Under the pieces are notes generated by a model that saw only the letters and a list, made by a program, of their open reading frames with translations, was not told the origin of the DNA and made no database searches. From positions 206,491 through 270,490 of the forward strand of contig CACOPB010000001.1 in NCBI GenBank assembly GCA_902628965.1: a DNA stretch of 64,000 nt, given 5' to 3'. Of this stretch, positions 5,816-35,477 are shown piece after piece. The translations under genes were made by a program, and so were the position numbers. Source of the DNA: an uncultured Pelagibacteraceae bacterium (GTDB lineage Bacteria; Pseudomonadota; Alphaproteobacteria; Pelagibacterales; Pelagibacteraceae). Position 1 is the stretch's first letter; each line of letters starts with the position of its first letter.

Positions 5816-6790
5816 TTAAATTTGAATATTAATCAAAGACTCCGGTAATTCTTCTCCAAAACATCTCTGATAATATTCTGCGATAGTATTTTTTTCAATA
5901 TCATCGCATTTATTTAGAAAAGTTACTCTAAAGGCGTAACCAGTGTCCTTAAAAATTTCTGAATTTTCAGCCCAGTGTAATACAGTTCTTGGACTCATTA
6001 CTGTTGATATATCTCCTGCTATAAATCCTTTACGTGTAAGAGATGCCACTTTTATCATATTGGCAACTTTTTCTTTTCCTTTTGCATTATTTAAATTTTT
6101 ATTTTTAGATAACACAATATCCATTTCTTTGTCTAAGTTAAGATAGTTTAGTGTTGTAACAATATTCCACCTATCCATCTGACCTTGGTTAATTTGCTGC
6201 GTACCATGATAAAGACCTGTAGTATCACCAAGTCCAACAGTATTTGAGGTAGCAAATAATCTAAAAAATTTATTTTGTTTAATTACTTTGTTTTTATCTA
6301 ATAATGTGAAATTTCCTTCAGCTTCTAAAACTCTTTGAATTACAAACATTACATCAGGCCTACCAGCATCATATTCATCAAAAACAAGTGCAACTGGATT
6401 TTGGATTGACCATGGCAAAATACCTTCATTGAATTGAGTTACTTGTTTACCATCCTGAAGAACAATCGCATCTTTTCCAATCAAGTCTATTCTGCTTACA
6501 TGACTATCTAAATTTACTCGGATACAAGGCCAATTTAATCTTGCAGCTATTTGCTCGATGTGAGTAGATTTACCAGTACCGTGATATCCCTGAACTAAAA
6601 CTCTTTTGTTGAAAGCAAATCCTGAGATAATGGCTAAAGTAGTATCTCTATCAAACTTATAGTTTTTATCGATTTCAGGAACATATTCATTTTTTTTAGA
6701 AAATGCATCTACTTCCATTTCTGAATCAATTCCAAAAGTTTGTTTTAGTGAAACTTTAATATCTGGTTCGGTGTTAAGATTTGGTGTCAA
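5816..6790 (-). CDS. cobS: CobS-like MoxR-type AAA+ ATPase
   Basis: Walker [10 protein letters not shown], Walker [35 protein letters not shown]. Confidence 0.93.
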
Positions 6791-7307
6791 TTTTTTCTCT
6801 ATAGGTATTTTTTAATTGTGTATAAGCTAATGTTATAAGTTTAAGTTTTTCCTCGTATTTTTTATTTCCAGAATTCATATCAGGGTGAAATTTTTTCACA
6901 AGTGATTTGAATTTATCCTGTATTTTCTTCCACTTTAAACCCACAGAAACTCCCAATATTCCAAAAGCTTTTATATCTTTATGATCAAATTTAAATTGAC
7001 GCATATGATTATAATCTCCATTTATTTTTTCTTTATCAAGCTCATCTCTTAAAGTTGTATTCCACAATACTTTAAAAAAATTATCTGAGGAGCTAAAGCT
7101 TTGTGTGGGTTTGTGCCAAGTCATATCAGATTTCAAGAAATCCATTACTTGGTCGTCATTCATTCCTGAAAAATAGTTCCAATTTTTATTAAATTCTTTG
7201 ACATGTTCCAGGCAAAGCATTCTAAATTTTCTACTATTATCTTTTTCAACTGGTGCCTTATATTCACCTATTTCATTACAATTATTCCAGTCGCAAATAT
7301 TTTTCAT
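6774..7307 (-). CDS. J-domain (DnaJ-like) protein with an N-terminal Cys/His motif
   Basis: C-terminal J-domain with HPD (KKFHPDMN); N-terminal CDW..C...APV...[15 protein letters not shown] typical of the protein upstream of alphaproteobacterial cobS. Confidence 0.88.
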
Positions 7308-7324
7308 GATATATAATAATATAT

Positions 7325-7585
7325 ATGAATATAAATGAGTTAATTACAATTGTAAAAAATAAATTATTAAATCAAATAAATATTGAAAGTATAAATATTG
7401 AAGATAAATCTTTTCTTCATAAAAATCATAAAGGAAATCAAGAAGGAAAATATCATTTAAAATTAATTATTGTTTCTCAAGAACTAAAAAAAATGAGTAA
7501 AATTGAAAGTAATAAAAAAATCTACAAGATTTTAGATCGAGAATTAAAAGAATTTATTCACTCAATCCAAATTTTAATTAGTTAA
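7325..7585 (+). CDS. bolA: BolA family protein
   Basis: IEDKSFLHKNH...HLKLIIVS...IHSIQI pattern; conserved position divergent from dnaJ-cobS-cobT. Confidence 0.82.
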   Translation: MNINELITIVKNKLLNQINIESINIEDKSFLHKNHKGNQEGKYHLKLIIVSQELKKMSKIESNKKIYKILDRELKEFIHSIQILIS

Positions 7586-8680
7586 AAATTTTTTTAGAAA
7601 CAAACTTAATTTTTTTTTTGAGTATTGTTTGTTGAAAATTGGCTTGCCTATTTTTTTTAATAAAACTAAATTAATCTTCTCAGAGTTATTTTTTTTATCT
7701 TTAATCATAAAATTTAAAATTTTATTTAAATCTTTTATAGAAAAATATTTTTTAATAGAAGAGGGTAAATCATAGTTATCAATATGATTTATAATTGAAT
7801 TATATTCTCTTTTACCAAGTATGTTTTCTTTAAAACTAAAACTAAGTGCTGATTTCATCCCAAGTATCACAGCTTCACCATGATTCAGTTTATGGCTGTA
7901 CCCTAAGCCTGCCTCATAAGCATGGGCAAATGTATGGCCAAAATTTAACACCTTTCTTAATGCTGTTTCTTTTTCATCTTTTTCAACTATTTTTTTTTTG
8001 ATTTTACAACTTTCATAAATTGCTTTTTCAATAAATGGAGATGAAAGACTTAAAATCTTTTTAAGATTTTTATTTAAAAAATTAAAAAATTTTTTATTAT
8101 CAATTAAAGAATGCTTCAATATCTCTCCATATCCACAAATTATTTCTTTTTTTGACAAAGATTTAAGAAATTGAATATCCGAGAGAACTAATGATGGTTG
8201 ATAAAAACTCCCTATTAAATTTTTACCATGTTTAGAATTAACTCCAGTTTTGCCACCAATTGATGAATCAACCTGAGCTAAAAGAGTTGTTGGAATATTT
8301 ACAAATTTTAGGCCTCTTTTAAAGAGACTAGCCACAAAACCACTTACATCGCCTGTAATTCCTCCCCCTAAAGAAATTAAAACATCATTTCTTGAAAAGT
8401 TTTTATTTAACAAAACTTCTAGAATTTTATTAACGCTATTAATATTTTTATTTTTCTCACTGGCATTAAAAAATAACACATAAATATTTTTATTTTTTAA
8501 AGACTTTTTAATATTTGAGATAAATTTTTTTGGAACATTTTTATCAACAACAATTAAACATTTATCAAAATTTATTGAATTTAATTTAAAAATTTTTGAT
8601 ACGCTTGAAGTTAAATTTGATCCAATAATTATTGGATATTTTTCAGTTTTAGTTACTATGTTTAATCTAGTTTGTTTCAT
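7574..8680 (-). CDS. aroB: 3-dehydroquinate synthase
   Basis: LGGGITGDVSGF, PTTLLAQVDSSIGGKTG, LNFGHTFAHAYE, HGEAV. Confidence 0.97.
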   Translation of the reverse strand: MKQTRLNIVTKTEKYPIIIGSNLTSSVSKIFKLNSINFDKCLIVVDKNVPKKFISNIKKSLKNKNIYVLFFNASEKNKNINSVNKILEVLLNKNFSRNDVLISLGGGITGDVSGFVASLFKRGLKFVNIPTTLLAQVDSSIGGKTGVNSKHGKNLIGSFYQPSLVLSDIQFLKSLSKKEIICGYGEILKHSLIDNKKFFNFLNKNLKKILSLSSPFIEKAIYESCKIKKKIVEKDEKETALRKVLNFGHTFAHAYEAGLGYSHKLNHGEAVILGMKSALSFSFKENILGKREYNSIINHIDNYDLPSSIKKYFSIKDLNKILNFMIKDKKNNSEKINLVLLKKIGKPIFNKQYSKKKLSLFLKKFLTN

Positions 8681-9236: not shown

Positions 9237-9419
9237 ATGCAATTCATTAAAAACACAAGTTCAGGTAAAGCAAGTATCATAGGACTTGTGATTAAATCTA
9301 TAATTGGATTAGGGGTTATTTTAGGGATTATTTTTTTTCTTAGTACAATTGATTTTCCTGCACCTAAAAAAGAAATTGAAAAAATTATTCCAAATGAAAA
9401 TTTTAAAATCGTTAAATAA
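9237..9419 (+). CDS. Small single-pass membrane protein (60 aa), unknown function
   Basis: One hydrophobic helix followed by DFPAPKKEIEKII; divergent from aroK and overlapping the next ORF start. Confidence 0.7.
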   Translation: MQFIKNTSSGKASIIGLVIKSIIGLGVILGIIFFLSTIDFPAPKKEIEKIIPNENFKIVK

Positions 9420-11157
9420 GAAAATTCTTTCATTTGAATTAGTTTGTCTTATTTTTTTTATACCTGTGCTTGCTGAAGAAAAACCAATTGATATTTGGAA
9501 TATAGAAAAAAAAGATAATCAAGTTATTTCAGAAACAAATATTTCAAGTGAAAATACTTCAGGAAATAACCAGAATAGTGTTTACGAGCTACAAACAAAT
9601 AAACAAACAGATATAGTTAAACTTGATAAAGAATTTTCATCAAAAGAAATTAAAATTGTTGGATTATACGATCCCAGCGAATACGGCCTGAGTATGGATA
9701 TGTGGTCAAATTCTGATGGAACTAAATTAAAAAATTTATTTCAGAATATTAATAAGTTAAATCTCTCAGAGGATGCATCTGACATAATGCATGTATCTTT
9801 ATTAACCAATGCTTATTCCCCAACCAAAAACATTACTGAGCAAGAATTTATGAGCTTTAAATCTGACTGGTTAATAAAAGATGCAAACTTAGAATTAATA
9901 GAAGAATATTTAATTAAAAATCAAATAATAAATATGCATCCAAATTTAACAAGATATTTAGTTGATAGTTATTTATCAGAATCAAATGTAAAAAAATCTT
10001 GTGAGATTTTTTCTAAAAATAAGGAACCTATCCAAGATGAATATCTATCTAAATTTAATTTATATTGTTTAATCAATTATGGAAAAAATGAAGAGGCACA
10101 ACTAATCTTAGATTTAAAAAAAGAGTTAGGTTTTGAGGATAATTATTATGAAAATAAAATAAATTATTTATTTGGATATCTAGATGAGGTAGATAAAGAA
10201 ATATCAGTAAACTCAATTTTAGATTTTCATTTAGCACACAGAACTAACCCTGAGTTTTCTTACGAACCAAGTCAAGATACACCTAAAATAATTTGGAAAT
10301 ATCTTTCAGCTGCTAATTTGCTCTATAAAATTCAAGATATAGAAATTACTGATATAGAAAAAATTTATACAATTGAAAAGGCTGTTAATGATAAAAATTA
10401 TTCTGAGGAAGAGTTGTTCGATTTTTATAAAAAATTTCAATTTAATATAAATCAGTTTTTAAACGCAAAAGAGGCATATAAATCTCTATCTCCAATCGAG
10501 GGAAGAGCTCTTTTATATCAACGGACCCTCTTAGTAGAAGAACCAAAAATTAAACTAGAATTTATTAAGCTGTTAAAAGATCTATTTATATCTGATGATA
10601 TTGGAGATGCCTTTGATTTAGAATTAAAAAAATTTTTAAGTGAAATTAATGTTACGGAAGTACCCTCAAATTTTACAACATTTTATAATAGTAATTTAAA
10701 TAAGAAAGAGACAGCAGATAAAAAGATTAAATATAATAGTAAAATTTTACATCAATCAAAACTTATAAATTATTTTAATGGGGACTATGCAAAATCTAAA
10801 ATTGAAGAGGACCTAGATAAATTTTTAAAGAAAATTAAAAAAGATAAAAAATATTTTTTATCAAAAAAAGATATAATTTTTTTAGAGGCGCTTAAATCTG
10901 ATGGAATTGAAATTTCAAAAAAATATGACCGTCTATATGAGGTAAAGCAATCAGAAATGCCTGCCGATATTCAAACAATGATAGATAATAATGAGATTGG
11001 TGCTGCATTGCTGAGAATAATTGAGGTGATTGGACCTGACAAAATTGAAAATATTGATGAAGATACTGTTTATTTTATTATTAATACTTTAAACCAATTA
11101 AATGTTGATCTAATTAGAAATAAACTATTGCTAAAAGTTCTTCCTTTAAAAGTTTAA
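9394..11157 (+). CDS. Conserved hypothetical exported, mostly helical protein
   Basis: Long ORF with a signal-peptide-like N-terminus from MKILKS (9394) and a GLYDP..YGLSMDMW motif; no catalytic motif recognised. Confidence 0.75.
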   Translation: MKILKSLNKKILSFELVCLIFFIPVLAEEKPIDIWNIEKKDNQVISETNISSENTSGNNQNSVYELQTNKQTDIVKLDKEFSSKEIKIVGLYDPSEYGLSMDMWSNSDGTKLKNLFQNINKLNLSEDASDIMHVSLLTNAYSPTKNITEQEFMSFKSDWLIKDANLELIEEYLIKNQIINMHPNLTRYLVDSYLSESNVKKSCEIFSKNKEPIQDEYLSKFNLYCLINYGKNEEAQLILDLKKELGFEDNYYENKINYLFGYLDEVDKEISVNSILDFHLAHRTNPEFSYEPSQDTPKIIWKYLSAANLLYKIQDIEITDIEKIYTIEKAVNDKNYSEEELFDFYKKFQFNINQFLNAKEAYKSLSPIEGRALLYQRTLLVEEPKIKLEFIKLLKDLFISDDIGDAFDLELKKFLSEINVTEVPSNFTTFYNSNLNKKETADKKIKYNSKILHQSKLINYFNGDYAKSKIEEDLDKFLKKIKKDKKYFLSKKDIIFLEALKSDGIEISKKYDRLYEVKQSEMPADIQTMIDNNEIGAALLRIIEVIGPDKIENIDEDTVYFIINTLNQLNVDLIRNKLLLKVLPLKV

Positions 11158-18309: not shown

Positions 18310-19989
18310 TTAGGTTGCAGTTTTAACCGTTGTGCGTTTCATTATCACAACCTGTTGACCCATAGTCAATATATTGTTAATCGTCCAATAAATAACTAAT
18401 CCACTTGGGAAGGGAGCAAGTATTACAGTTAAGAATAATGGGAAAAACATAAATATCTTTGCTTGCATTGGATCTGTCGGAGCCGGGTTTAACTTCTGTT
18501 GTAACCACATGCTGGCCCCCATAGCGACGGGCCATACTCCAATAACTAGAAATGATGGAACATCGTATGGAAGCAATCCAAATAAATTGAATATGGAAGT
18601 GGGATCCTTGGCACTGAGATCTTTGATCCAACCATAAAAAGGCATGTGACGCATTTCTATTGTTACAAATAAAACCTTATATAAAGCAAAGAATACAGGG
18701 ATCTGGACGAGGATGGGCAAGCAACCACTCATAGGATTTACTTTTTCTTTTTTATAAAGAGCCATCATTGCTTGTTGCAATTTCATTTTATCATCCTTGT
18801 GCACTTCTTTAAGTCTTACCATCTCAGGCTGTAACTGCTTCATCTTCGCCATACTTCTAAAAGAAAAATTAGCTAAAGGAAAAAACGCCAGTCGAATACA
18901 AACAGTAACAGCAATGATTGCTAGTCCGTAGTTACCAAATATTTTAAAGAAATACTCTAGTGCAGTGAACAAGGGGCGAGTTAAAAAGTATAGAAAACCC
19001 CAGTCAATTGTTAAATCAAATTTATCAATTTTTAAAGACTCTGCGTATCCATCAATCACATCAACTCGTTTTGCTGCTACAATTACTTGTAAATTTTCTT
19101 CTATAGAAGAATTTCCAGTTAACTCTAATGGTTCTGTTGTAACAAAGTTTATTCTATACTTGTTCTTATAATCCATTGTAGTTTTGAATTCTTTTTCTCT
19201 TGGTGGAATAAGTGTTGATATGTAATATTTATCTCCAATTCCTAACCATCCTTTTTGAGCAATTCTTGAGAATTTCTTCTCTTCAATATCGTCATAGTCT
19301 TCCTCAATTAATTCTTCATCTAATGTAGCGATTGGACCTTCATGAAGAATGTAAAAATCAGTTATACCTTCTGGGATCTGATTTCTTATAATCTGTCCAT
19401 AAGAATAGAAATCATAGTTTTTATCAGTAGAATTTATAACTCTTTGTTTTATTGTGAATAAAAACTTATCATCTAATGCAATTTCTTTTTCAAAAGTGAT
19501 CCCTTGATCATTTGTCCAACTTAGTTTTATAGGAGATTGATCAGTTAATTTATTATTTCCAGAAACTGACCAAATTGAATCTGCATTTGGAATATCGATA
19601 TTTTTATCAGTAGTTATAAAACCACTTTCAATTATATAGCCTTCTTTAGAACTTCGTGGTGCAAGAAATTTTACTTTTTCATCGCTTTCCAAACTAACAT
19701 TATATTCTTTGAAAGTTAGATCATCTATTGCAGCCCCCTTTAACGAAATAGATCCAACAATACTTTGATTCTCAAATTGAATTCTTTCACTTTGTTGTAA
19801 TGCTTCTTCTCGTGAAATTTCGCTTACATTTTCTTTTTGATCAAGACTAGGTGCATCTGAATTCTGTTCAGTCTTAGTTTTTTCAGTTAAATTTTCTTTC
19901 GTTACTGGAGGTGGTGCAAAAAATAGCGAGTATAATATAATTACAGCAGCTGATAGACTTATGGCAGCAATTATATTTCTTGTTTCCAT
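18310..19989 (-). CDS. yidC: Membrane protein insertase YidC
   Basis: DWGFLYFLTRP, GNYGLAII, VNPMSGCLP, GLVIYWTINN. Confidence 0.97.
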   Translation of the reverse strand: METRNIIAAISLSAAVIILYSLFFAPPPVTKENLTEKTKTEQNSDAPSLDQKENVSEISREEALQQSERIQFENQSIVGSISLKGAAIDDLTFKEYNVSLESDEKVKFLAPRSSKEGYIIESGFITTDKNIDIPNADSIWSVSGNNKLTDQSPIKLSWTNDQGITFEKEIALDDKFLFTIKQRVINSTDKNYDFYSYGQIIRNQIPEGITDFYILHEGPIATLDEELIEEDYDDIEEKKFSRIAQKGWLGIGDKYYISTLIPPREKEFKTTMDYKNKYRINFVTTEPLELTGNSSIEENLQVIVAAKRVDVIDGYAESLKIDKFDLTIDWGFLYFLTRPLFTALEYFFKIFGNYGLAIIAVTVCIRLAFFPLANFSFRSMAKMKQLQPEMVRLKEVHKDDKMKLQQAMMALYKKEKVNPMSGCLPILVQIPVFFALYKVLFVTIEMRHMPFYGWIKDLSAKDPTSIFNLFGLLPYDVPSFLVIGVWPVAMGASMWLQQKLNPAPTDPMQAKIFMFFPLFLTVILAPFPSGLVIYWTINNILTMGQQVVIMKRTTVKTAT

Positions 19990-20240
19990 TATTTATTATC
20001 CTTCATTTCTTTTTTAACTGGATCAAACCCTTCTCCACCCCCTAAAAATTTTATTGGGTGGCAGGATAAAATTCTTTTTATACTAATTAATAAGCCTTTA
20101 AAAAAACCGTATTCTTTTAAAGCATCTATGCTGTATTCTGAACATGTTGGCAAATATCTACAAGAATGTCCAAATAATGGACTAATTAAATATTTATAAG
20201 CTTTTATAAATTTAATTAAAATTAAAGTAAATATGTTCAT
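19989..20240 (-). CDS. yidD: Membrane protein insertion efficiency factor
   Basis: [10 protein letters not shown]...RILSCHP...GFDPV. Confidence 0.95.
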
Positions 20241-20578
20241 TTTATTTTCTCAAAATCTTTAAATAAGGTTTCTTTTATATTTTTGTATTCGTTATTTAGC
20301 ATGGCCGGATGAGCAATAACAAGAACAGATTTTTCAAGTTTTATTAAATTTTTTTTAATTCCATCATTAAATATTTGTCTAAGCCTTCGTTTAATTTTAT
20401 TTCGTTTCACAGCTATTGCTATCTTTTTTTTTACCGAAAAAGAAATATTTAATTTTTTTTTATCCTTGTTAGGTAAGTTTCCAAAAAAAATTGATACATA
20501 TTTGTTTGAAATCTTTTTTTGTCTTAAAAGGATTTTGAATTCCTCATTTTTTGAAAGAGCAATAATTTTGCTTTTCAT
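20237..20578 (-). CDS. rnpA: Ribonuclease P protein component
   Basis: [17 protein letters not shown] (RNR-like motif); lies between rpmH and yidD. Confidence 0.9.
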
Positions 20579-20582
20579 TATT

Positions 20583-20723
20583 TTAAACTGAAACAGTTAG
20601 TGATTTTCTTCCTCTTGCTCTTCTTCTAGCTAAAAGTTTCTTTCCACCTTTAGTTTTCATCTTTGAACGAAAACCGTGTTTTCGAGCTCTTTTTTTATTT
20701 GAGGGCTGGTAAGTTCTTTTCAT
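20583..20723 (-). CDS. rpmH: 50S ribosomal protein L34
   Basis: Not in the ORF track. Read by hand: [46 protein letters not shown]. Confidence 0.97.
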
Positions 20724-20820
20724 AATTAGATTTGATATTGTTTTTTAATAATTTCGCACCTTTATATTAGTAATAATTAAAATAGCAAATAGAAGATTAA
20801 GCATTAAAATAAGAAGAATC

Positions 20821-21543
20821 ATGGAAAATACAAAAAAAATTAAATTATTTATTGGCTTATCTTATTTGTTAATTATTTGCTTATTTTTGTATTTCTTTTT
20901 TTCAAAATTTAGTCTTGAAGAGATTACATCCTATGATTTTATAAAAAATAACAGTGCTTATTTTGCTGAACTTAAAAATTCAAACTTATTTTTAATTTCT
21001 ATAATTTTTTTAGTGCTGACAATTGTTTGGTGTTTTCCACTGCTTGGCTTTGGTAGCCCTGCCGCTTTGATAGGTGGGTTTATATTTGGAAAATGGATCG
21101 GCACTTTGCTTGTTGTTATAGGATTAAGTATTGGTGCAACATTATTATATATATTTGGTAATTATTTTTTAAAAGAATTAATTAGAGAAAAATTTTTAAA
21201 TAAATTTCAAAACCTAGAAATTAAATTTAAAAAATCAGAATTTATTTACTTATTGATTTATCGTTTTATAGGTGGGATACCTTGGCAGCTAAGTTGTCTT
21301 TTGCCAACTCTATTTAATGTTAGTGCTGTAAACTTTTTTTTTGCTACGATAATCGGAATTATTCCACAAATTTTTTTAGTAGTTTCCATTGGTAGTGGTT
21401 TAGAAAAAGTTATAGATCAAAACATAGCAGCCCCTGGTATAATCGATATTATTTTTTCTTCTGATATTTATATTCCTATCATAGCTTTCTTTATTTTAAT
21501 TCTGATTACGATATTTTTGAGAAAGTTTTTTTATAGAAATTAG
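20821..21543 (+). CDS. TVP38/TMEM64 (DedA/VTT-domain) membrane protein
   Basis: Hydrophobic; GGFIFGKWIGT, SIGATLLY, LIYRFIGGIP, FFFATIIGIIP. Confidence 0.88.
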   Translation: MENTKKIKLFIGLSYLLIICLFLYFFFSKFSLEEITSYDFIKNNSAYFAELKNSNLFLISIIFLVLTIVWCFPLLGFGSPAALIGGFIFGKWIGTLLVVIGLSIGATLLYIFGNYFLKELIREKFLNKFQNLEIKFKKSEFIYLLIYRFIGGIPWQLSCLLPTLFNVSAVNFFFATIIGIIPQIFLVVSIGSGLEKVIDQNIAAPGIIDIIFSSDIYIPIIAFFILILITIFLRKFFYRN

Positions 21544-21617
21544 TGGTGCTCCCACCCTGTACTGACCAGGGAACTAGTCATTACCAATGACTTGTTATAC
21601 CATTTAACTACAGGAGC
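21544..21617 (-). tRNA. tRNA-Thr(GGT) with atypical T-loop
   Basis: GCTCCTG/TGGGAGC acceptor, GTTA/TAAC D-stem, AGTCA-TTGGTAA-TGACT anticodon arm, CCCTG-GTCAGTA-CAGGG T-arm, ACCA end. Confidence 0.9.
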
Positions 21618-21717
21618 TTAGAGACAAATTGTATTTTATTGATAATAAAGCATTTTTTTCAAATTATTGCCTTAATTTTTTGATTAATATGATTTATATC
21701 TATTTTAGGAAAATGTT

Positions 21718-21918
21718 ATGGGAATTCATTACGATTATAAATCAACTAAAGGTAACAAGCTTATGGAAAAGCAAGCTAAAAGAGAGAAAAAGCTTGCAGA
21801 AAAAAAAGCTAAACGTTTAGCTAAAGAAGGCCCAAAAAAAGAAGAGGAAAAAACACCTGCATTGGATCCTAACAAACCGATTTCTTTAGATTTCCTGACT
21901 AACCCAAATAAAGAATGA
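21718..21918 (+). CDS. Small basic protein (66 aa), unknown function
   Basis: ATG preceded by AGGA; K/E/A-rich helical segment; stop overlaps the next ATG (ATGA). Confidence 0.7.
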   Translation: MGIHYDYKSTKGNKLMEKQAKREKKLAEKKAKRLAKEGPKKEEEKTPALDPNKPISLDFLTNPNKE

Positions 21919-22016
21919 GTTCAAAAGAAAAAAATGAGCGTTTAAGTTTGGCGCTTAGAAAAAATTTGAAGAAAAGAAAAATTTTCCAAAAAAAAAATAA
22001 AAAGAAAAATAAATAA
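21915..22016 (+). CDS. Small basic protein (33 aa): [33 protein letters not shown]
   Basis: Below the ORF-track cutoff. Translationally coupled at both ends (ATGA with the upstream ORF, TAATG with dcd). RLxxALRxNLKxRK resembles the small protein seen near murA in alphaproteobacteria. Confidence 0.72.
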
Positions 22017-22576
22017 TGTCGATTCAACCTGATTCCTGGATTAAAAAAATGTGCAAAGAGCACAATATGATAGAACCGTTCTTAGATCATCAAGTTTCTG
22101 AAGGAAAAATTTCTTATGGATTAAGTAGTATGGGATATGATGTAAGAATCTCCAATGAATATAGAATTTTTACTAATGTAAATAGTTCTTTGGTTGATCC
22201 AAAGAATTTTTCTGATGATAACTTTATAGAAAGAAAAGGACCACACTGTATTATCCCACCAAATTCATTCGTTTTAGCTAAAACAGTTGAATATTTTAGA
22301 ATACCAAAAGACGTTTTATGTATTTGTGTTGGAAAAAGTACTTATGCAAGAATAGGAATTATTTGTAATGTTACTCCAATTGAAAATGAATTTGAGGGCA
22401 ATATAGTAATTGAGCTAAGTAATACAACACCTAATCCTGCAAAAATTTATTCAAACGAGGGGATAGCACAATTTTTATTTTTCAAATCAGATACTCAACC
22501 AGAAACAACTTATAAATCAAAGAACGGTAAATATCAGGGCCAAACTACAATTCAAGTTGCTAAGATTAAAAAGTAA
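22016..22576 (+). CDS. dcd: dCTP deaminase
   Basis: [40 protein letters not shown]. Confidence 0.96.
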
Positions 22577-29534: not shown

Positions 29535-29712
29535 ATCTTTCCAATAAATTAGTATAATTTTGATAATATCTAGATTTCTAATAATTGCATAAAGTGCAAC
29601 AATAACACAAATAATAAAGAATGTTTTTAATACTAAAATTAGTTCTATAAAGTATTTTTAAATATTTAAATACATTAATCAAATATTTACGATAAAATAA
29701 AAAATTAGAATC

Positions 29713-30810
29713 ATGGATAATATATTGTTAATTTTACTAGTTTTGTTATTAGGCGGCGTTTTAGCTATTCTTTATCTAAATTTAAAAACTAAGCCAAAAG
29801 ATGAAAATGAAAACAAAGAAGCTGAGGAAATAACTAATTTAAAATCAGAAATATCAAGTTTAAAAGATACCTTAAACACTACAATCAATAGCTCACTTGG
29901 TGCAATGTCGACTTCATTTAATAATCTATCAACTGGGGTTACTAAAGAAATGACTGAAACTTTAACTAAGGTAGAGGAAAAGGTCGGTAATTTTAATCAA
30001 CAAGTTCAACTATTAAATCAAAGCCAAGAGGGGATAACTAAAATTTTAGCTGGAGTTAAGAAATATGGAACTCTTGCAGAATTTAGCTTAGATGCTCTAA
30101 TTAAAGATTTACTACCAGCCTCTCAATTTATGACGAATGTTAAAATGAAAGAGGACACCAGTGAAAATGTTGAATTTGCAATAAAGCTTCAAGGAGATGT
30201 TTTGGTTCCTGTTGATAGTCATTTTCCAGTAGAAAAATTCAAAGCAATTACCGATGGTCATGACGTGGAAGACAAAAGGGCTGTAGCAGATGCTAGAGCA
30301 AAATTAGCCTCAGCGTTTAAAGCGAAAGCTAAAAGTGTTAATGAAAAATATATTGTTCCACCAAAAACTACTGATTTTGCAATCGTATATGCTCCTACAG
30401 AAAGTTTATACAAAGAGTTAACTGAATACCAAGATCCAAGTACAAAAGAATTATTAACTCAAGAGTTAATGAAAAAATATAAAGTTGTAATATGTGGACC
30501 TAATACTCTTTCTGCTTACTTACAGTCTTTACATATGGGATTTCAATCATTGAAGGTACAAAAAGGTGCAACGGAAATTTATAATCATTTAAAAACTATC
30601 AGTACAAGATTTTCTAAACATTTTGACAACATTATAGTTCTTAGAAAAAAATTAGAAGATGCTATGGGAGTTGTTGATAAATTTGGAACGGATGCAAGAT
30701 CAATTTCAAGAACCTTAGAAAATATTAAAGATCCCGAGCAGGTTGAGAAAGCTGTACAAACTGAAAACGTGGAAAAATTTGTTGAACCAAATAGGCAACT
30801 TAAAAATTAA
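29713..30810 (+). CDS. rmuC: DNA recombination protein RmuC family
   Basis: N-terminal TM anchor, coiled coil, GTLAEFSL..L, PVDSHFP, PPKTTDFAIVYAPTESLY, GPNTLSAYLQSL.MGF. Confidence 0.9.
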   Translation: MDNILLILLVLLLGGVLAILYLNLKTKPKDENENKEAEEITNLKSEISSLKDTLNTTINSSLGAMSTSFNNLSTGVTKEMTETLTKVEEKVGNFNQQVQLLNQSQEGITKILAGVKKYGTLAEFSLDALIKDLLPASQFMTNVKMKEDTSENVEFAIKLQGDVLVPVDSHFPVEKFKAITDGHDVEDKRAVADARAKLASAFKAKAKSVNEKYIVPPKTTDFAIVYAPTESLYKELTEYQDPSTKELLTQELMKKYKVVICGPNTLSAYLQSLHMGFQSLKVQKGATEIYNHLKTISTRFSKHFDNIIVLRKKLEDAMGVVDKFGTDARSISRTLENIKDPEQVEKAVQTENVEKFVEPNRQLKN

Positions 30811-30847
30811 TTTCTTTTTTTCCTTAATAACGTCTATAAGAAATCTC

Positions 30848-31534
30848 ATGCAGTGGAATCAAAAATATGATTATCCAAAATCATCAAGAGCAACAGTTGA
30901 TGGCATTAGAAGATACTTATTAGGGGAAACAAAATTACCAAGTGTCACTTCAATTTTAGATGCAACTCGATCTGAAGAAGATAAAGCAGCATTAGCAAAT
31001 TGGAGAGAAAGAACTGGGCAAAAAGAGGCTGAGGCAATTACAAAAGCAGCAAGTAGTAGAGGTTCTCAAATGCACAACTATTTAGAGTCCTATTTACTTG
31101 GAAGAGAAAATTTAAGTTTTTTTGAAGATAATGAACAATACAAATTAATGGCTAAAGAAATTATAGAAAAAGGTTTGAAAAATAGATTGGATGAAATTTG
31201 GGGTGTTGAATGCACTCTTTATTACCCAGAGAAGTATGCAGGTACTGCTGATTGTGTTGGGGTTTATGAAGGAAAAGAAACAATAATAGATTTTAAACAA
31301 AGTAATAAACCTAAAAAGGCTGAATATATAGACTCATGGCTTCTTCAAACAAGTGCATATTCATTAGCACATAACATTGTGTATAACTCCAATATCACTT
31401 CTTGTGTAATTTTGGTTTGCACAGTAGATAAATTATTCCAAGAGTTTAAAATTCAAGGGCATGATTTAATTGTTTATCAAAATTTGTTTTTGGGAAGATT
31501 AAAAAAATTTAATGAGCTATCGGATTTAACTTAA
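30848..31534 (+). CDS. Stand-alone PD-(D/E)XK exonuclease (phage exonuclease / MGME1-like)
   Basis: LPSVTSIL, RGSQMH, E, YAGTAD, IIDFKQS, Q..AY..A; start moved to ATG 30848. Confidence 0.88.
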   Translation: MQWNQKYDYPKSSRATVDGIRRYLLGETKLPSVTSILDATRSEEDKAALANWRERTGQKEAEAITKAASSRGSQMHNYLESYLLGRENLSFFEDNEQYKLMAKEIIEKGLKNRLDEIWGVECTLYYPEKYAGTADCVGVYEGKETIIDFKQSNKPKKAEYIDSWLLQTSAYSLAHNIVYNSNITSCVILVCTVDKLFQEFKIQGHDLIVYQNLFLGRLKKFNELSDLT

Positions 31535-31540
31535 GATTTT

Positions 31541-32977
31541 ATGGATAAAATAGTAATTTACGATACAGAAACAACAAATAGTACAATTTGGGGCTCAATA
31601 ATTGAAGTAGGTGCTGTAGTTGTTGATAAAAACTTAAAAGAAATTGGTAAGCTAAATATTCGTGGCAGAATGCCCGAGGGCGAGGTTCCAAGTGCAAAGG
31701 CCTTATTAGTTAATTCAACAAGTATTGATTTACTTACTAAAGGCAATTACTCGCATTACGATTTTTTAGGCGCAGTAGAAAATTTTTTCTCTAAAGCTGG
31801 TCCAGCATTGTTTATGGGTTGGAGTAACTTAAATTTTGATAGACGAATGTTTCATTTTAATTTTTTTAAAGGGAATAGATATCCTTACATTACACATTCA
31901 TCACCCAATAAAGAACATGACGGTTTACATGTTGCAAGAGTAGCACAAACCTTGAATCCTGAAACATTAAAGACTGAATTAACAGAAGCTGGAAATGAAA
32001 GTCTAGCTTTAGAAGGTCTAGCTAGACAACAAGGATTTGATACATCCCAACAACACACTGCTTATCATGATGCATTCACAAGCTTAAAAATTCTAAGAAT
32101 TATAAAAGACAAACATAAAGACAATTGGGAAAATTTTTTAAGCACATCTACAAAAAATAGCGTTGAAACTATCTTAAAAAGTGAGGGGATTTATTCAATT
32201 TTCGAAAATGTTAAAGGAAAAAATATGATGTATCTTGTCTCTACATTACATCCAGATCATTGTTTTCATCCATCATATGCATCTTGGGGATATTTATTTG
32301 ATTTAAGAAGAGATCCTGAACCTTTGTTAAATTTATCAATAAATGATCTTAAAGTTTATTTAAAAAAGTTTAGTCCAAAAGCACTTAGAGTAATCAAAAC
32401 CAACAAAGCTCCTGTAGTTTTAGATAAAAAGTTTGCATTAAAAGAGAAGGCATATGCTGACTTAGATTTAGAAACAATCCAGAAAAGAGCAAAAATGGTT
32501 AGAAATAGTGAAAATTTTTGTAAAAATATTCAAATCATTAATAGGGAGGCCGCTGAAGAAAAAGCTCAAACTCAAACCCAGGAAGATATGTTGCCTGAAG
32601 AAACTTTATATGAAAAATTCATTCCCAATAAAGACACCCAATTATTTAAAACTTGGCATAGTTCTTCTTGGGAAGATAAATTAAGAATGTTGGATAAGTT
32701 TCAAGATAAAAGATGTAGTTGGTTTGGGCAAAAAATTATTTATCAAGAAGCACCGCATATTTTGCCACCAGATTTATATAAAAATATAAAAAGTGAAATT
32801 GCTAGACGAATTTTAAGCAAAAATAGAGAAAAGTGGCAAACTATAGGAATGGCCTATCAAGAAATTGATACCTTAAGAGATCAAGCATCAAATCGAGATG
32901 ATGAAGAGGAACTAAAAAAATTAGATGAAATAAATGAATTTATTATGTCTATAGAAAAAAAATATGAAATTGCCTAG
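31541..32977 (+). CDS. sbcB: Exodeoxyribonuclease I (DEDDh 3'-5' ssDNA exonuclease)
   Basis: YDTETT (ExoI), NLNFD (ExoII), HTAYHD (ExoIII), IKTNKAP, and the C-terminal ExoI region (ETLYEKFIPNKD). Confidence 0.87.
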   Translation: MDKIVIYDTETTNSTIWGSIIEVGAVVVDKNLKEIGKLNIRGRMPEGEVPSAKALLVNSTSIDLLTKGNYSHYDFLGAVENFFSKAGPALFMGWSNLNFDRRMFHFNFFKGNRYPYITHSSPNKEHDGLHVARVAQTLNPETLKTELTEAGNESLALEGLARQQGFDTSQQHTAYHDAFTSLKILRIIKDKHKDNWENFLSTSTKNSVETILKSEGIYSIFENVKGKNMMYLVSTLHPDHCFHPSYASWGYLFDLRRDPEPLLNLSINDLKVYLKKFSPKALRVIKTNKAPVVLDKKFALKEKAYADLDLETIQKRAKMVRNSENFCKNIQIINREAAEEKAQTQTQEDMLPEETLYEKFIPNKDTQLFKTWHSSSWEDKLRMLDKFQDKRCSWFGQKIIYQEAPHILPPDLYKNIKSEIARRILSKNREKWQTIGMAYQEIDTLRDQASNRDDEEELKKLDEINEFIMSIEKKYEIA

Positions 32978-33011
32978 TTGACTTTAATGCTCTAATTAAT
33001 AGAAAGGAATT

Positions 33012-33329
33012 ATGCTTACAAATTTTAAAGACGAAGATTTTGATACTAAAATTAAAAATGAAGATGTTTCAGTCATCCAGTTTTCAGCTGAGTGGTGTGG
33101 TCCATGTAAGGCACTAAAACCAGTAATGGATAAGTTATCTGATGAATATAAAGATAAGGCTGGTTTCTATTATGCTGATGTTGAAGATGGTGGAATAAAT
33201 ACTGGAAGTGCAGCAGGTATCAGAGGTGTTCCAACAGTTATTATCTATAAAAAAGGTGTTGAAGTAGATAGAAAAGTTGGTGGAGTTCCCGAAAGTCACA
33301 TGAAGGAATTTTTAGATAAAAATATCTAA
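33012..33329 (+). CDS. trxA: Thioredoxin
   Basis: WCGPC, IRGVPT. Confidence 0.96.
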   Translation: MLTNFKDEDFDTKIKNEDVSVIQFSAEWCGPCKALKPVMDKLSDEYKDKAGFYYADVEDGGINTGSAAGIRGVPTVIIYKKGVEVDRKVGGVPESHMKEFLDKNI

Positions 33330-34594
33330 TTTAAATTTAAAACTTCACCGGCAAGATATAACGATCCAGTAATCAGGATTATATCGTTTTCTTTTACTGG
33401 GATTGACTTTATAGCATTTTCTATACTTTCCTTATAATTTATATTTGAAAAGCTGTTTAGCTTATCTTTAAGCTCTTCTCCTTTAATTGAATTAGGTTGA
33501 TTAGGTATATCTATTGTAGTCAATGTAGAGATATCCTTAAAGAAACTCATATATTCATTATGATCTTTATTAGCCATCATTCCAAGAATGATGTGTTTAT
33601 TGCAATCTAAACTTTCCAAGTATTCATTCAAAACTTTTGCTCCCAATGGGTTATGAGATCCATCAACATAAAGTTTGTTATCTTTTACAAGCTCTTTAAG
33701 TTTTCCAGATTTAATTTCTTGTAATCTTGCAATACAATTTATTTTTAAAATACCTTTTTTAATGTGGTCATCTTTAATTTTTAAGTCTTTCAAAATTCTT
33801 AGGGTTGCAATTGCTGTTGAGACATTTTCTAATTGAAATTGACCTTTAACATTTGGCATAGGTAATTTTATTCCCCCAAATTGATCTTCATAATAAAAGA
33901 AGTCATTTTCTTGCATTGTAAAACTATAATTTTCATTATGGAAAAACTTATTTGATCTATTATTTGAAATTGTTTTTTTAATATTTTCTTTAATTTTATT
34001 AGTACTTTGTTTTGCAACTATAATATTTGAGTTTAATAAGCTTGATGTTTTCTCAAAAATAATTTTTTCAACAGTTTGTTCATTTTCAGGTAGCCAATCT
34101 AAATGATCAAGGCCAATAGATGTTACAACGCTAGCAAGGTTATTTTTTAAGATATTAGTAGCGTCAAATCTAAAGAATAATCCACTTTCAATTAAATTGA
34201 TATTATCTGGGTATTGAGATGCTTTTAAAAAATAGGCTGCAGTCAGTATTTCAAAAAAAGTAATTGGTTCACCATTGTTAGCTTCCTCAACTTCTCCAAG
34301 TAAATTTGCCAAATCTGCATCATTCAATTCTTCATTATTAAAAATAAACCTTTCATTGATACTTTTAATATGAGGACTAGTGTAGATATTACAATTGAAA
34401 TTTGCTTCCTTTAAAATAGAAAACATTGCTTGGATAGTTGAGTACTTTCCATTAGTACCAACAATTGAAATTGCTTTGATTTTATCTTGAGGGTTGCCTA
34501 TTTTTTTGCAGAGACTTTGAATACGATCTAGACTTAAATCTATTTCTTTAGGATGCAGCTCTTGTAAGCGACTGACTATCTTCTGAAGTTTCAT
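33326..34594 (-). CDS. folC: Folylpolyglutamate synthase / dihydrofolate synthase
   Basis: GTNGK, YTSPH, TFFEILT, IESGL..DATN, DGSHN, ITGSLYLAGE. Confidence 0.95.
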   Translation of the reverse strand: MKLQKIVSRLQELHPKEIDLSLDRIQSLCKKIGNPQDKIKAISIVGTNGKYSTIQAMFSILKEANFNCNIYTSPHIKSINERFIFNNEELNDADLANLLGEVEEANNGEPITFFEILTAAYFLKASQYPDNINLIESGLFFRFDATNILKNNLASVVTSIGLDHLDWLPENEQTVEKIIFEKTSSLLNSNIIVAKQSTNKIKENIKKTISNNRSNKFFHNENYSFTMQENDFFYYEDQFGGIKLPMPNVKGQFQLENVSTAIATLRILKDLKIKDDHIKKGILKINCIARLQEIKSGKLKELVKDNKLYVDGSHNPLGAKVLNEYLESLDCNKHIILGMMANKDHNEYMSFFKDISTLTTIDIPNQPNSIKGEELKDKLNSFSNINYKESIENAIKSIPVKENDIILITGSLYLAGEVLNLN

Positions 34595-35477
34595 TTTGTT
34601 CAGCACTTATATCAGAATTTTTCTTTAACAATATTGCTAATAAAGTTCCAATTTTAGATGCGAGATCTTTACGTTCAACGATTAAATCTACAAAACCAGT
34701 TTTTTCAACATATTCACTTTTTTGAAAACCTTCAGGAAGTTCTTCTTTAACAGTTCCTTGAATTACTCTTGCACCTGCAAATGCAATTAAAGCTCCTGGT
34801 TCTGCAATATGAATATCACCTAACATAGCGTATGATGCGGTTATACCTCCTGCTGTTGGATCAGTGATACAAACCAAATACGGAAGTCCATTTTTTTTTA
34901 ATTCATTAATTGCAAGCGTTGTTCTCGTCATTTGAGATAATGATATTAAACTTTCCATCATTCTCATTCCTCCACCAGCGCTAATACATAAAAAAGGTGT
35001 TTGATTTTCTATCGCATGCTGTATTCCATATAAAAAAGCTTCACCTTCTGCTGCTGCCATTGAAGCACCTAAAAAATCAAAATCAGATGCTACAGCTGTA
35101 ATTTTAATATTATTTATAGTTCCAGAAGCAACCATCATTCCACATTCTAATCCTGTTTTTTTTCTGGCGTTTTTTAATCTTTCCTTGTAGGACTTCGAAT
35201 CTGTCCAATTTAGTGGGTCATCTTTAGGGATTGGGGTTTTAAAAATTTCGTAATTATTTTTTCCAAACAATATATCAAATCTTTGATGTGGTTTTAATCT
35301 ATGATGACGCTTACAATCTGGACAAACCCATAAGTTTTCTTCTAACTCCTTTTTTAAAATTGGACCCTTACAACATGACGTCCAATCACTTTTTGCAATA
35401 TCCTCTTTTGTAGCTCTTTCACGTATAGCAGTTTTAATTTTTTCACCTGCTTTGATAATTTTAGTTATCCAGTTCAT
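34548..35477 (-). CDS. accD: Acetyl-CoA carboxylase carboxyltransferase beta subunit
   Basis: GGGMRMMES, DPTAGGITAS, FAGARVI, FQKSE. Confidence 0.96.
   Translation of the reverse strand: MNWITKIIKAGEKIKTAIRERATKEDIAKSDWTSCCKGPILKKELEENLWVCPDCKRHHRLKPHQRFDILFGKNNYEIFKTPIPKDDPLNWTDSKSYKERLKNARKKTGLECGMMVASGTINNIKITAVASDFDFLGASMAAAEGEAFLYGIQHAIENQTPFLCISAGGGMRMMESLISLSQMTRTTLAINELKKNGLPYLVCITDPTAGGITASYAMLGDIHIAEPGALIAFAGARVIQGTVKEELPEGFQKSEYVEKTGFVDLIVERKDLASKIGTLLAILLKKNSDISAEQNETSEDSQSLTRAAS

What the first reader, a model, noticed from the sequence alone, without database searches (positions are those of the whole stretch)
29713..33329. rmuC / PD-(D/E)XK exonuclease / ExoI / trxA unit in the slot normally held by addB-addA: a possible alternative DNA end-processing system
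Seen: four co-oriented genes with gaps under 40 nt encode a membrane-anchored RmuC, a stand-alone phage/MGME1-like PD-(D/E)XK nuclease with intact motifs, a DEDDh exonuclease I and thioredoxin. They run head-on into folC-accD-trpA-trpB-trpF-pyrF. Recalled: in many alphaproteobacteria trxA facing folC-accD-trp is preceded by the addB-addA helicase-nuclease. Here three DNA-processing genes sit in that place instead. Inference: a streamlined, highly recombining lineage may have replaced AddAB with a compact helicase-free set (a 5'-3' type nuclease, a 3'-5' ExoI and a membrane tether) for break resection or for handling incoming DNA, feeding RecFOR (recR is at 53839). An alternative use would be nucleotide scavenging.
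Basis: partly seen in the sequence, partly recalled or inferred. Interest (0 to 1): 0.72.

Follow-up and report, generated by a model that had tools for sequence, protein, structure and literature searches.

The report
Conserved three-nuclease gene cluster in SAR11
The ocean bacterium SAR11 keeps three DNA-cutting enzymes side by side, one of them a relative of a human mitochondrial and phage exonuclease, at the chromosomal position where some related bacteria keep their main DNA-break repair machine; whether the cluster replaces that machine was not tested.

Summary
Window 29713-33329 holds rmuC, a stand-alone PD-(D/E)XK nuclease, exonuclease I and trxA, co-oriented and convergent with folC-accD-trpA-trpB-trpF-pyrF.

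The PD-(D/E)XK protein belongs to the MGME1 family by profile, motifs and predicted fold. It is not an AddA/AddB fragment. ExoI has all five DEDDh residues.

The order is kept in 81 of 81 Pelagibacteraceae loci and in a divergent lineage. Metatranscriptome contigs cross all three gene junctions.

Several points qualify the interpretation:
- Gaps under 40 nt are the norm in this window.
- Only the MGME1-like/ExoI pair is tightly coupled.
- RmuC carries His in place of the catalytic Lys in every co-oriented copy, and 6 genomes have a canonical RmuC on the opposite strand instead.
- The cluster has no helicase.
- ExoI removes the 3' tails that RecA loading needs.
- I could not test whether AddAB is absent from the whole genome.

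My best reading is a helicase-less module that trims and disposes of linear or single-stranded DNA ends. That covers the nuclease half of AddAB function, not a proven replacement.

The parts
29535..29712 (.). hisG-rmuC spacer (178 nt). One of the few long spacers in the window, the likely promoter region of the cluster, and the site where 6.5-8.4 kb variable islands are inserted in other SAR11 genomes.
   Evidence: A promoter-like match lies at 29538-29567. Metatranscriptome depth dips at 29604-29804. Six relatives carry islands between hisG and rmuC with DruA/MzaB-like genes or genes whose N-termini look like a C5-methyltransferase and a Vsr endonuclease (by eye).
29713..30810 (+). rmuC, 'form A'. 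Membrane-anchored, coiled-coil RmuC-family protein whose PD-(D/E)XK motif reads E...D-S-H, with His in place of the catalytic Lys.
   Evidence: Pfam RmuC 1.5e-48. The E..VDSH motif is present in 74 of 74 SAR11 form-A copies, while the nearest non-SAR11 relatives have D-A-K. It is closer (30-35% identity) to plasmid-borne RmuCs than to the chromosomal Sinorhizobium RmuC (about 20%).
30848..31534 (+). MGME1-family (RecB-type) PD-(D/E)XK exonuclease, 228 aa, stand-alone.
   Evidence: The family profile hits only human MGME1 in PDB, at 7e-29. The AlphaFold model has pLDDT 94.6. Foldseek gives MGME1 TM 0.70-0.84, against RecE 0.54 and AddA 0.35. All five motifs are invariant. Homologues occur in 928 phage records.
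31541..32977 (+). Exonuclease I (sbcB-like), a DEDDh 3'-5' ssDNA exonuclease with the ExoI C-terminal domains.
   Evidence: Pfam and NCBIfam hits. PDB ExoI 4rg8 at 8e-14. DEDDh residues are intact. The best model is PADLOC RTasSbcB at 1.4e-57. It lies 6 nt after the MGME1-like gene here and overlaps it by 4 nt in L096, L108 and L109.
33012..33329 (+). trxA (thioredoxin, CGPC). A syntenic anchor shared with other Alphaproteobacteria. It probably also has its own promoter.
   Evidence: PF00085 1e-22. A transcript contig spans exoI|trxA, but trxA depth is about 30 times that of exoI in run X9. The same trxA|folC convergence is seen in Sinorhizobium and Shinella.
33326..34606 (-). folC, the first gene of the convergent folC-accD-trpA-trpB-trpF-pyrF block. 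Context and anchor only.
   Evidence: ORFs. Pfam labels on the orthologous locus L001.

Best explanation
This is a conserved SAR11 core gene cluster encoding three DNA nucleases, probably transcribed from a promoter in the hisG-rmuC spacer.

Its functional core is the tightly coupled pair of an MGME1-type exonuclease and exonuclease I. The MGME1-type enzyme acts on 5' ends and flaps of single-stranded DNA and is of phage ancestry. Exonuclease I removes single-stranded DNA from the 3' end.

Together, and with a helicase encoded elsewhere, they would trim or destroy linear or unwound DNA from both ends. This mirrors the role reported for MGME1 in clearing linear mitochondrial DNA.

The RmuC-family protein would place this activity at the membrane. 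It may act more as a DNA-binding or tethering partner than as a nuclease, because its catalytic Lys is replaced by His.

The cluster therefore supplies the nuclease (ExoV-like) half of what AddAB or RecBCD do: disposal of broken or incoming linear DNA, control of recombination intermediates and nucleotide recycling. It is not a Chi-regulated recombination initiator. It lies next to trxA, where Rhizobiaceae carry addB-addA.

Shown: gene identities, intact active sites, conserved order, transcript contigs across junctions, and synteny with the addBA position.
Inferred: joint action, substrates, and any link to loss of AddAB.
For: - Identities and intact catalytic motifs.
- Order rmuC-MGME1-like-exoI-trxA|folC is kept in 81 of 81 Pelagibacteraceae species-representative loci.
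- The order is also kept in a lineage where ExoI is only 43% and the MGME1-like protein 54-61% identical, while RmuC (86-91%) and TrxA (91%) are nearly unchanged. The pair therefore varies together.
- The MGME1-like stop and exoI start are 6 nt apart here and overlap by 4 nt in L096, L108 and L109.
- Metatranscriptome contigs from four runs span rmuC|MGME1-like, three span MGME1-like|exoI and one spans exoI|trxA. Depth dips in the upstream spacer.
- MGME1 biochemistry: it cuts ssDNA, flaps and overhangs (PMC6237815), and linear mtDNA fragments accumulate when MGME1 is lost (PMC4222359 abstract).
- A membrane-bound RmuC-domain protein degrades DNA in vitro and lowers transformation efficiency (PMC10270631).
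- Sinorhizobium and Shinella have trxA<addA<addB at the equivalent place.
- SAR11 is reported to lack RecBCD and RecF (PMC12374537).
Against: - Co-orientation and short gaps are the genome default.
- Metatranscriptome contigs can contain contaminating DNA (stated in the output).
- trxA is expressed far above the nucleases in one run, so it is at least partly a separate unit.
- The MGME1-like gene is a stand-alone chromosomal gene between ftsH and folP in another marine lineage, with no rmuC or exoI nearby.
- Six SAR11 genomes have a different RmuC on the opposite strand.
- The His-for-Lys change makes RmuC nuclease activity uncertain.
- No helicase partner was identified.
- No experiment bears on function.
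Confidence: 0.4

Rival explanations
1. The cluster is a functional replacement of AddAB that resects double-strand ends and feeds RecOR/RecA to start recombination in a lineage that lost AddAB.
For: It occupies the same position relative to trxA|folC as addB-addA in two Rhizobiaceae. The MGME1 family shares the RecB-type nuclease motifs with AddA and RecB. SAR11 is reported to lack RecBCD and RecF. No AddA/AddB similarity was found in the window or any fetched SAR11 locus.
Against: No helicase domain is present in any of the three proteins. ExoI destroys the 3' tails needed for RecA loading, and in E. coli it must be inactivated (sbcB) for the RecF pathway to substitute for RecBCD (established knowledge). 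MGME1-type enzymes prefer ssDNA. The flank upstream of the cluster (hisS-hisZ-hisG) is not syntenic with the flank upstream of rhizobial addB (tsaE, nucleotidyltransferase). The Ruegeria accD-folC copy, on a chromid, has no trxA or addAB next to it, so the slot did not extend beyond Rhizobiaceae in the records I could reach. AddAB absence from the whole genome is untested.
Confidence: 0.2
2. An innate anti-phage or anti-foreign-DNA module. A membrane-sited RmuC protein and two exonucleases destroy incoming linear DNA, as a fixed core next to a defence-island hotspot.
For: The hisG-rmuC spacer holds variable islands with DruA and MzaB-like genes (PADLOC) and with genes resembling a methyltransferase and Vsr (by eye) in 6 genomes. 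ExoI fits PADLOC RTasSbcB best (1.4e-57), and form-B RmuC fits RTasRmuC (1.7e-35). Form-A relatives sit on plasmids, one next to an RloB family protein and an ATP-binding protein. The RmuC-domain protein ShdA is a membrane-bound defence nuclease. The MGME1-like/ExoI pair exists as very divergent alleles in otherwise similar genomes. There are two alternative RmuC forms.
Against: The cluster itself is present in every locus examined and is 94-100% identical across 80 species representatives. That is core-gene behaviour, not defence-gene turnover. No reverse transcriptase or other sensor is present. Divergent alleles also affect neighbouring housekeeping genes (folC about 70%, trpA/trpB 30-37%), so mosaicism is not specific to the nucleases. 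The form-A RmuC active site is altered.
Confidence: 0.15
3. There is no joint function. These are three independently acting housekeeping nucleases and trxA that happen to be neighbours in a genome where almost all genes are packed head to tail.
For: 83% of co-oriented neighbours have gaps under 40 nt. The run of 11 co-oriented genes continues upstream through hisS-hisZ-hisG, which are unrelated in function. The MGME1-like gene stands alone in another lineage. RmuC orientation flips in 6 genomes. trxA shows independent high expression.
Against: MGME1-like/exoI adjacency is invariant, with a 4-nt overlap, and the two genes diverge together. RmuC stays at the same position in either orientation and either form. 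Three DNA nucleases in a row is an unusual concentration of one activity.
Confidence: 0.2

Closest known systems
MGME1 / Ddk1 (mitochondrial genome maintenance exonuclease 1) and its phage relatives (PHROG 298 'exonuclease')
   Same: Same family by profile (7e-29), by the five RecB-type motifs and by predicted fold (TM 0.70-0.84). Also a single-domain protein of similar size. The kinship between phage exonucleases and MGME1 is already published (PMC3597694), and JGI already labels marine homologues 'genome maintenance exonuclease 1'.
   Different: Here it is a conserved chromosomal gene of a free-living bacterium, coupled to exoI and rmuC. It is not a mitochondrial or phage replication accessory. 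NCBI records call the SAR11 copies hypothetical. Polarity and substrate are untested.
AddAB (alphaproteobacterial type) / RecBCD helicase-nucleases
   Same: RecB-type nuclease motifs. Together the cluster encodes nucleases acting on both strand polarities. It has the same position next to trxA facing folC as addB-addA in Sinorhizobium and Shinella.
   Different: No SF1 helicase domain and no large two-subunit architecture. There is no sequence similarity to AddA or AddB, and the fold match to the AddA nuclease domain is weak (TM 0.35). Nothing suggests Chi recognition.
E. coli exonuclease I (SbcB)
   Same: DEDDh residues and the ExoI C-terminal domains are present, and the alignment is full length.
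   Different: Only 21% identical. It scores below the NCBIfam ExoI cutoff (108.6 against 260) and fits the PADLOC 'RT-associated SbcB' model better (193.7 bits). sbcB is reported absent from Caulobacter and other Alphaproteobacteria (PMC1839093), so it is unusual for the class.
RmuC (E. coli YigN) and the Shield defence protein ShdA
   Same: N-terminal membrane anchor, coiled coil and RmuC domain.
   Different: Form A belongs to a subfamily with Glu as the first acidic residue. In SAR11 alone among the sequences compared, it has His in place of the catalytic Lys. It is a core gene rather than an island gene. The chromosomal RmuC of Sinorhizobium lies next to def-fmt and is only about 20% identical.

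Membership tests
MGME1 / RecB-type PD-(D/E)XK exonuclease | Motifs Ia (His), I (Glu), II (Asp), III (D-x-K) and IV (Q-h-x-x-Y) | tested here: met
   H76, E121, D135, D148/K150 and Q167/Y171 are invariant in 30 family members. The full motif set is present in 82 of 83 sequences scanned. The motif definition is from PMC6237815.
MGME1 / RecB-type PD-(D/E)XK exonuclease | MGME1-like fold | tested here: met
   AlphaFold pLDDT 94.6, pTM 0.91. The top nine Foldseek hits are all human MGME1, with E 8e-13 to 8e-11 and TM 0.70-0.84. The next best hits have TM 0.54 or lower.
MGME1 / RecB-type PD-(D/E)XK exonuclease | Metal-dependent ssDNA and flap exonuclease activity acting from free ends | not testable with these tools
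   Needs purified protein.
Exonuclease I (SbcB) | DEDDh catalytic residues | tested here: met
   D8, E10, D100, H172 and D177 align with E. coli D15, E17, D108, H181 and D186 (E. coli numbering from memory; alignment).
Exonuclease I (SbcB) | ExoI-specific C-terminal (SH3-like and helical) domains | tested here: met
   PF08411, E 8.7e-17, covering residues 243-468.
Exonuclease I (SbcB) | Score above the NCBIfam equivalog cutoff (NF008746) | tested here: not met
   108.6 bits against a cutoff of 260. This is a divergent clade.
RmuC family | RmuC domain with N-terminal membrane anchor and coiled coil | tested here: met
   PF02646 at 1.5e-48, covering residues 66-343. The hydrophobic N-terminus is read from the sequence. 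The alignment with E. coli RmuC is.
RmuC family | Complete PD-(D/E)XK catalytic motif (acidic, acidic, Lys) | tested here: not met
   The motif reads E...D-S-H in 74 of 74 SAR11 form-A copies. Plasmid relatives and E. coli have D-A-K. The effect on activity is unknown.
AddAB / RecBCD helicase-nuclease | SF1 (UvrD-like) helicase motor | tested here: not met
   No helicase domain in any of the three proteins. S. meliloti AddA and AddB gave no tblastn hit against the window or loci at E up to 10.
AddAB / RecBCD helicase-nuclease | RecB-type nuclease domain | tested here: met
   The motifs are shared. However, the protein is a separate family: the profile finds no AddA or RecB chain at E up to 10, and TM to AddA is 0.35.
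AddAB / RecBCD helicase-nuclease | Absence of a canonical AddAB or RecBCD elsewhere in the genome, which is required for a 'replacement' claim | not testable with these tools
   Only 64 kb of the genome and +/-10 kb loci were available. The literature states that RecBCD and RecF are absent but is silent on AddAB.
Anti-phage defence system (Shield-like or DRT accessory) | Variable presence within defence islands | tested here: not met
   The cluster is present in 81 of 81 loci and is highly conserved. It borders a variable island site but is not part of the variable content.
Anti-phage defence system (Shield-like or DRT accessory) | Associated reverse transcriptase or other sensor or effector | tested here: not met
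   There is no RT in the locus. Only the accessory-protein models match: RTasSbcB 1.4e-57, and RTasRmuC 5e-4 for form A or 1.7e-35 for form B.

The most novel reading that the evidence does not exclude
SAR11 domesticated a phage MGME1-type exonuclease, as a second streamlined marine lineage did independently. SAR11 coupled it to ExoI and to an RmuC-like membrane protein with an altered active site. The result would be a helicase-independent substitute for AddAB: a bacterial counterpart of the mitochondrial machinery that clears linear DNA. Its loose end-processing, together with the lack of MutSL and RecF, would help explain SAR11's unusually promiscuous recombination.
Probability: 0.15. Interest if true: 0.8.

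Novelty: new variant of a known kind. Interest (0 to 1): 0.52.

Why it matters
SAR11 is the most abundant heterotrophic bacterial group in the surface ocean. It recombines at very high rates, yet it is reported to lack RecBCD, RecF and MutSL (PMC12374537). How it processes DNA ends is an open question.

A conserved, expressed cluster of three nucleases at the ancestral addBA position is a concrete candidate for that role. It can be tested by heterologous complementation and by biochemistry.

It would also be a case of a phage or mitochondrial-type MGME1 nuclease serving as a core gene of a free-living bacterium. The full-text searches I ran on related terms turned up no paper describing such a case.

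If the cluster is only a set of neighbouring housekeeping nucleases, the finding is an annotation improvement: the NCBI-named SAR11 copy seen here is labelled 'hypothetical protein'.

Tried and rejected
1. The PD-(D/E)XK gene as a leftover of the AddA or AddB nuclease domain. Rejected. The family profile hits only MGME1, the fold match to AddA is weak, and there is no tblastn similarity.

2. The cluster as a prophage remnant. Rejected. The flanks are housekeeping genes, the position is fixed in all genomes, and ExoI has no phage homologues in 50,697 phage records.

3. Spacing as evidence of an operon. Rejected.

4. Literature on AddAB in SAR11. Three searches found nothing. Cromie 2009 and Zuniga-Castillo 2004 are not held. 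The supplements of two SAR11 papers gave nothing.

5. The single genome-contig scan returned only close Pelagibacteraceae. It gave breadth within SAR11 but no other alphaproteobacterial orders. I recovered rhizobial context instead from chromosomes mislabelled as plasmids in PLSDB.

6. The first alignment (A1) was too diverse for a locus scan.

7. The Microvirga accD hit was a plasmid copy and uninformative. The Ruegeria accD-folC copy, on a chromid, has no trxA or addAB next to it.

8. L096 and L097 are chimeric or truncated metagenome contigs and were used only for the parts that align.


Full report
**1. Observation**

The window has about 29% G+C. All close matches are Pelagibacteraceae, that is SAR11.

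- rmuC, 29713-30810
- a 228-aa PD-(D/E)XK protein, 30848-31534
- exonuclease I, 31541-32977
- trxA, 33012-33329

All four are on the + strand, with gaps of 37, 6 and 34 nt. trxA ends 4 nt inside the end of the convergent folC. folC is followed by accD, trpA, trpB, trpF, pyrF, ihfB, rpsA and cmk. Upstream lie hisS, hisZ and hisG, and then a 178-nt spacer.

The spacing itself carries no information. 83% of co-oriented neighbours in this window are closer than 40 nt, with a median of 1 nt.

**2. What the genes are**

*RmuC.* It matches Pfam RmuC at 1.5e-48. It has a hydrophobic N-terminus and a coiled-coil region like E. coli RmuC.

*The PD-(D/E)XK protein.* It has no Pfam hit. It matches PHROG 298 'exonuclease' at 1.8e-48 and human MGME1 at 1e-10.
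- A profile of 30 diverse family members hits only MGME1 in the PDB, at 7e-29 and nearly full length. It hits no AddA, RecB or Cas4 chain at E up to 10.
- The five RecB-type motifs defined for MGME1 (PMC6237815) are invariant.
- An AlphaFold model (pLDDT 94.6) matches the MGME1 crystal structures with TM 0.70-0.84. RecE reaches 0.54 and the AddA nuclease domain 0.35.
- It is therefore a member of the MGME1 family, not a fragment of AddA or AddB.

*The MGME1 family at large.* It is large, with 3,486 representative clusters, and mostly viral.
- 928 phage records hold a homologue. These include T4-like cyanophages, Vi1-like phages and pelagiphages HTVC023P (44% identity) and HTVC008M.
- The kinship between phage exonucleases and MGME1 is published (PMC3597694).
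- JGI already labels marine homologues 'genome maintenance exonuclease 1'.

*ExoI.* It is divergent: 21% identical to E. coli SbcB and below the NCBIfam cutoff.
- It is full length, has the ExoI C-terminal domains and has all five DEDDh residues.
- It has no phage homologues.
- Its best model is PADLOC 'RT-associated SbcB' at 1.4e-57.
- sbcB is reported absent from Caulobacter and other Alphaproteobacteria (PMC1839093).

*TrxA.* It is an ordinary CGPC thioredoxin.

**3. Conservation**

A scan of one genome per GTDB species gave more than 590 matching stretches. The best 80 were all Pelagibacteraceae.

In these 80 loci plus one more:
- The MGME1-like gene is followed by exoI in 81 of 81.
- trxA and the convergent folC follow wherever the contig allows.

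The order also holds in a second Pelagibacter lineage assembled from long reads (L108, L109). There, RmuC (86-91%) and TrxA (91%) are nearly unchanged. The MGME1-like protein is only 54-61% identical and ExoI 43% identical, and the two genes overlap by 4 nt. The two exonuclease genes thus form a tightly coupled pair that varies together.

This mosaicism is not unique to the pair. folC exists as a roughly 70% allele, and trpA/trpB as 30-37% alleles, in otherwise near-identical genomes.

**4. RmuC is the loose member**

73 loci have the co-oriented 'form A'. Six have a different, 389-aa RmuC on the opposite strand at the same place, which I call 'form B'.
- Form B has the canonical PD...IDAK motif and matches PADLOC 'RT-associated RmuC' at 1.7e-35.
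- Form A belongs to another subfamily. Its nearest relatives outside SAR11 are plasmid-borne RmuCs (30-35% identity). The chromosomal Sinorhizobium RmuC, next to def-fmt, is only about 20% identical.
- Those plasmid relatives read E...D-A-K. All 74 SAR11 form-A copies read E...D-S-H.
- The catalytic Lys is therefore consistently replaced by His. Form A may be a weak or altered nuclease, or mainly a membrane tether.

**5. Expression**

Contigs assembled from four marine metatranscriptomes cover the region.
- Contigs cross rmuC|MGME1-like in four runs, MGME1-like|exoI in three, and exoI|trxA in one.
- Depth dips in the hisG-rmuC spacer.
- In one run trxA is about 30 times deeper than exoI, so trxA probably also has its own promoter.
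- Such contigs can contain DNA, so this supports a shared transcript but does not prove one.

**6. Surroundings**

The hisG-rmuC spacer is an insertion hotspot. Six genomes carry islands of 6.5-8.4 kb there.
- Some islands hold DruA-like and MzaB-like genes.
- Others hold genes whose N-termini look like a C5-methyltransferase and a Vsr endonuclease. This was judged by eye and not scanned.

The nuclease cluster itself is outside the variable part.

**7. The addBA slot**

PLSDB holds whole chromosomes mislabelled as plasmids, and these gave the rhizobial context.
- In Sinorhizobium meliloti Ak57 the order is trpF-trpB-trpA-accD-folC, then facing it trxA, addA, an unannotated addB, a nucleotidyltransferase and tsaE.
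- Shinella has the same order by tblastn.
- In Caulobacter, addB and addA are CC3537 and CC3538 (PMC1839093). That trxA is CC3539 is my recollection only.
- The Ruegeria accD-folC copy, on a chromid, has no trxA or addAB next to it.

In SAR11 the three nuclease genes do occupy that position relative to trxA, but the flank further upstream is not syntenic.

S. meliloti AddA and AddB find nothing in the window or in any fetched SAR11 locus.

I could not test whether AddAB is absent from the rest of the genome. One published analysis reports that SAR11 lacks RecBCD and RecF (PMC12374537). None of the papers my searches returned mentions AddAB in SAR11.

**8. Mechanism**

The MGME1-like gene is also a conserved stand-alone chromosomal gene between ftsH and folP. 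This is seen in two divergent genomes of another low-G+C marine proteobacterium, with no rmuC or exoI nearby. It therefore does not need those partners.

None of the cluster's proteins has a helicase. In E. coli, ExoI removes the 3' tails needed for RecA loading, which is why sbcB mutations let the RecF pathway replace RecBCD (established knowledge). A cluster containing ExoI is therefore a poor candidate for feeding RecOR.

The better-supported reading is a module that trims or destroys single-stranded or linear DNA from both ends, with a helicase encoded elsewhere. MGME1 is implicated in the same kind of clearance of linear mitochondrial DNA (abstracts of PMC4222359 and PMC6584726).

RmuC would place this activity at the membrane. 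A membrane-bound RmuC-domain protein degrades DNA in vitro and lowers transformation in Pseudomonas (PMC10270631).

On this reading the module supplies the degradative half of AddAB function. I give it 0.4.

The rivals are:
- a fixed innate anti-phage module, 0.15
- neighbours that are functionally unrelated, 0.2

**9. Novelty and verdict**

All components belong to known families, and the MGME1-phage link is published.

The following were not mentioned in any paper returned by my searches:
- the conserved three-nuclease arrangement in SAR11
- its position at the addBA slot
- the coupled and co-diverging MGME1-like/ExoI pair
- the His-for-Lys RmuC variant and its alternative inverted form
- the independent chromosomal capture of the MGME1-like gene in a second marine lineage

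I classify this as a new variant of a known kind. It is of moderate interest because it gives a testable candidate for DNA-end processing in SAR11.

Noticed in passing
window 29535-29712; L001, L035, L050, L056, L058, L073 between hisG and rmuC; L085 upstream of rmuC (no hisG on the locus): The hisG-rmuC spacer is an insertion hotspot. Six genomes carry 6.5-8.4 kb islands there. Three hold a large DruA-type protein and an MzaB-like HATPase (PADLOC-scanned in L001; matched by size and order in L035 and L056). Three hold genes whose N-termini look like a C5 DNA methyltransferase, two of them also a Vsr-like endonuclease (by eye). L085 has a further set of ATPase-like genes upstream of rmuC.
   Followed up: partly
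L069:8756-9925 (- strand); also L070, L071, L072, L075, L082: In 6 of 81 genomes the co-oriented RmuC is replaced at the same site by a different, canonical RmuC (PD...IDAK) on the opposite strand. It matches the PADLOC 'RT-associated RmuC' model at 1.7e-35.
   Followed up: partly
L089-L091 and L103, around position 10001 / 6001: A 43-44% identical MGME1-like gene sits between ftsH and folP, in a ftsJ-ftsH-X-folP-glmM-tpiA-secG-nuo block. This is seen in two divergent genomes of another low-G+C marine proteobacterium (the gene order looks gammaproteobacterial). It would be a second, independent chromosomal capture of this phage-type nuclease.
   Followed up: partly
folC, trpA, trpB in L014, L022, L044, L047-L049, L058, L072, L108: Genomes that are otherwise 95-100% identical carry very divergent alleles of single housekeeping genes: folC at about 70%, and trpA/trpB at 28-37%. 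This indicates gene-sized replacements from distant donors.
   Followed up: no
L008, L034, L053, L054, L065, L067, L070, L071 between hisZ and hisG: About 850 nt of extra sequence separates hisZ from hisG in several genomes, but not in the window.
   Followed up: no
window 33326-33329: The stop regions of the convergent genes trxA and folC overlap by 4 nt. No terminator-like hairpin lies between them. The only terminator-like site in the region is inside folC, at 33575-33593.
   Followed up: no
L100 (CP090106.1) 19914-22175: The PLSDB record labelled 'S. meliloti Ak57 plasmid pSymB' is 3.72 Mb and carries chromosomal genes (trp, accD, folC, trxA, addA, def-fmt). Its addB is not in the gene table, and the longest open frame there is 784 aa. 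This could reflect the incomplete table or a disrupted gene.
   Followed up: no
window 9349-11157 (+): A 602-aa ORF with no Pfam match at E up to 1e-5.
   Followed up: no
L106 (Rhizobium jaguaris pRCCGE525b) 4248-8185: A plasmid RmuC of the form-A subfamily lies next to an RloB family protein and an ATP-binding protein. This looks like a defence-type neighbourhood.
   Followed up: no
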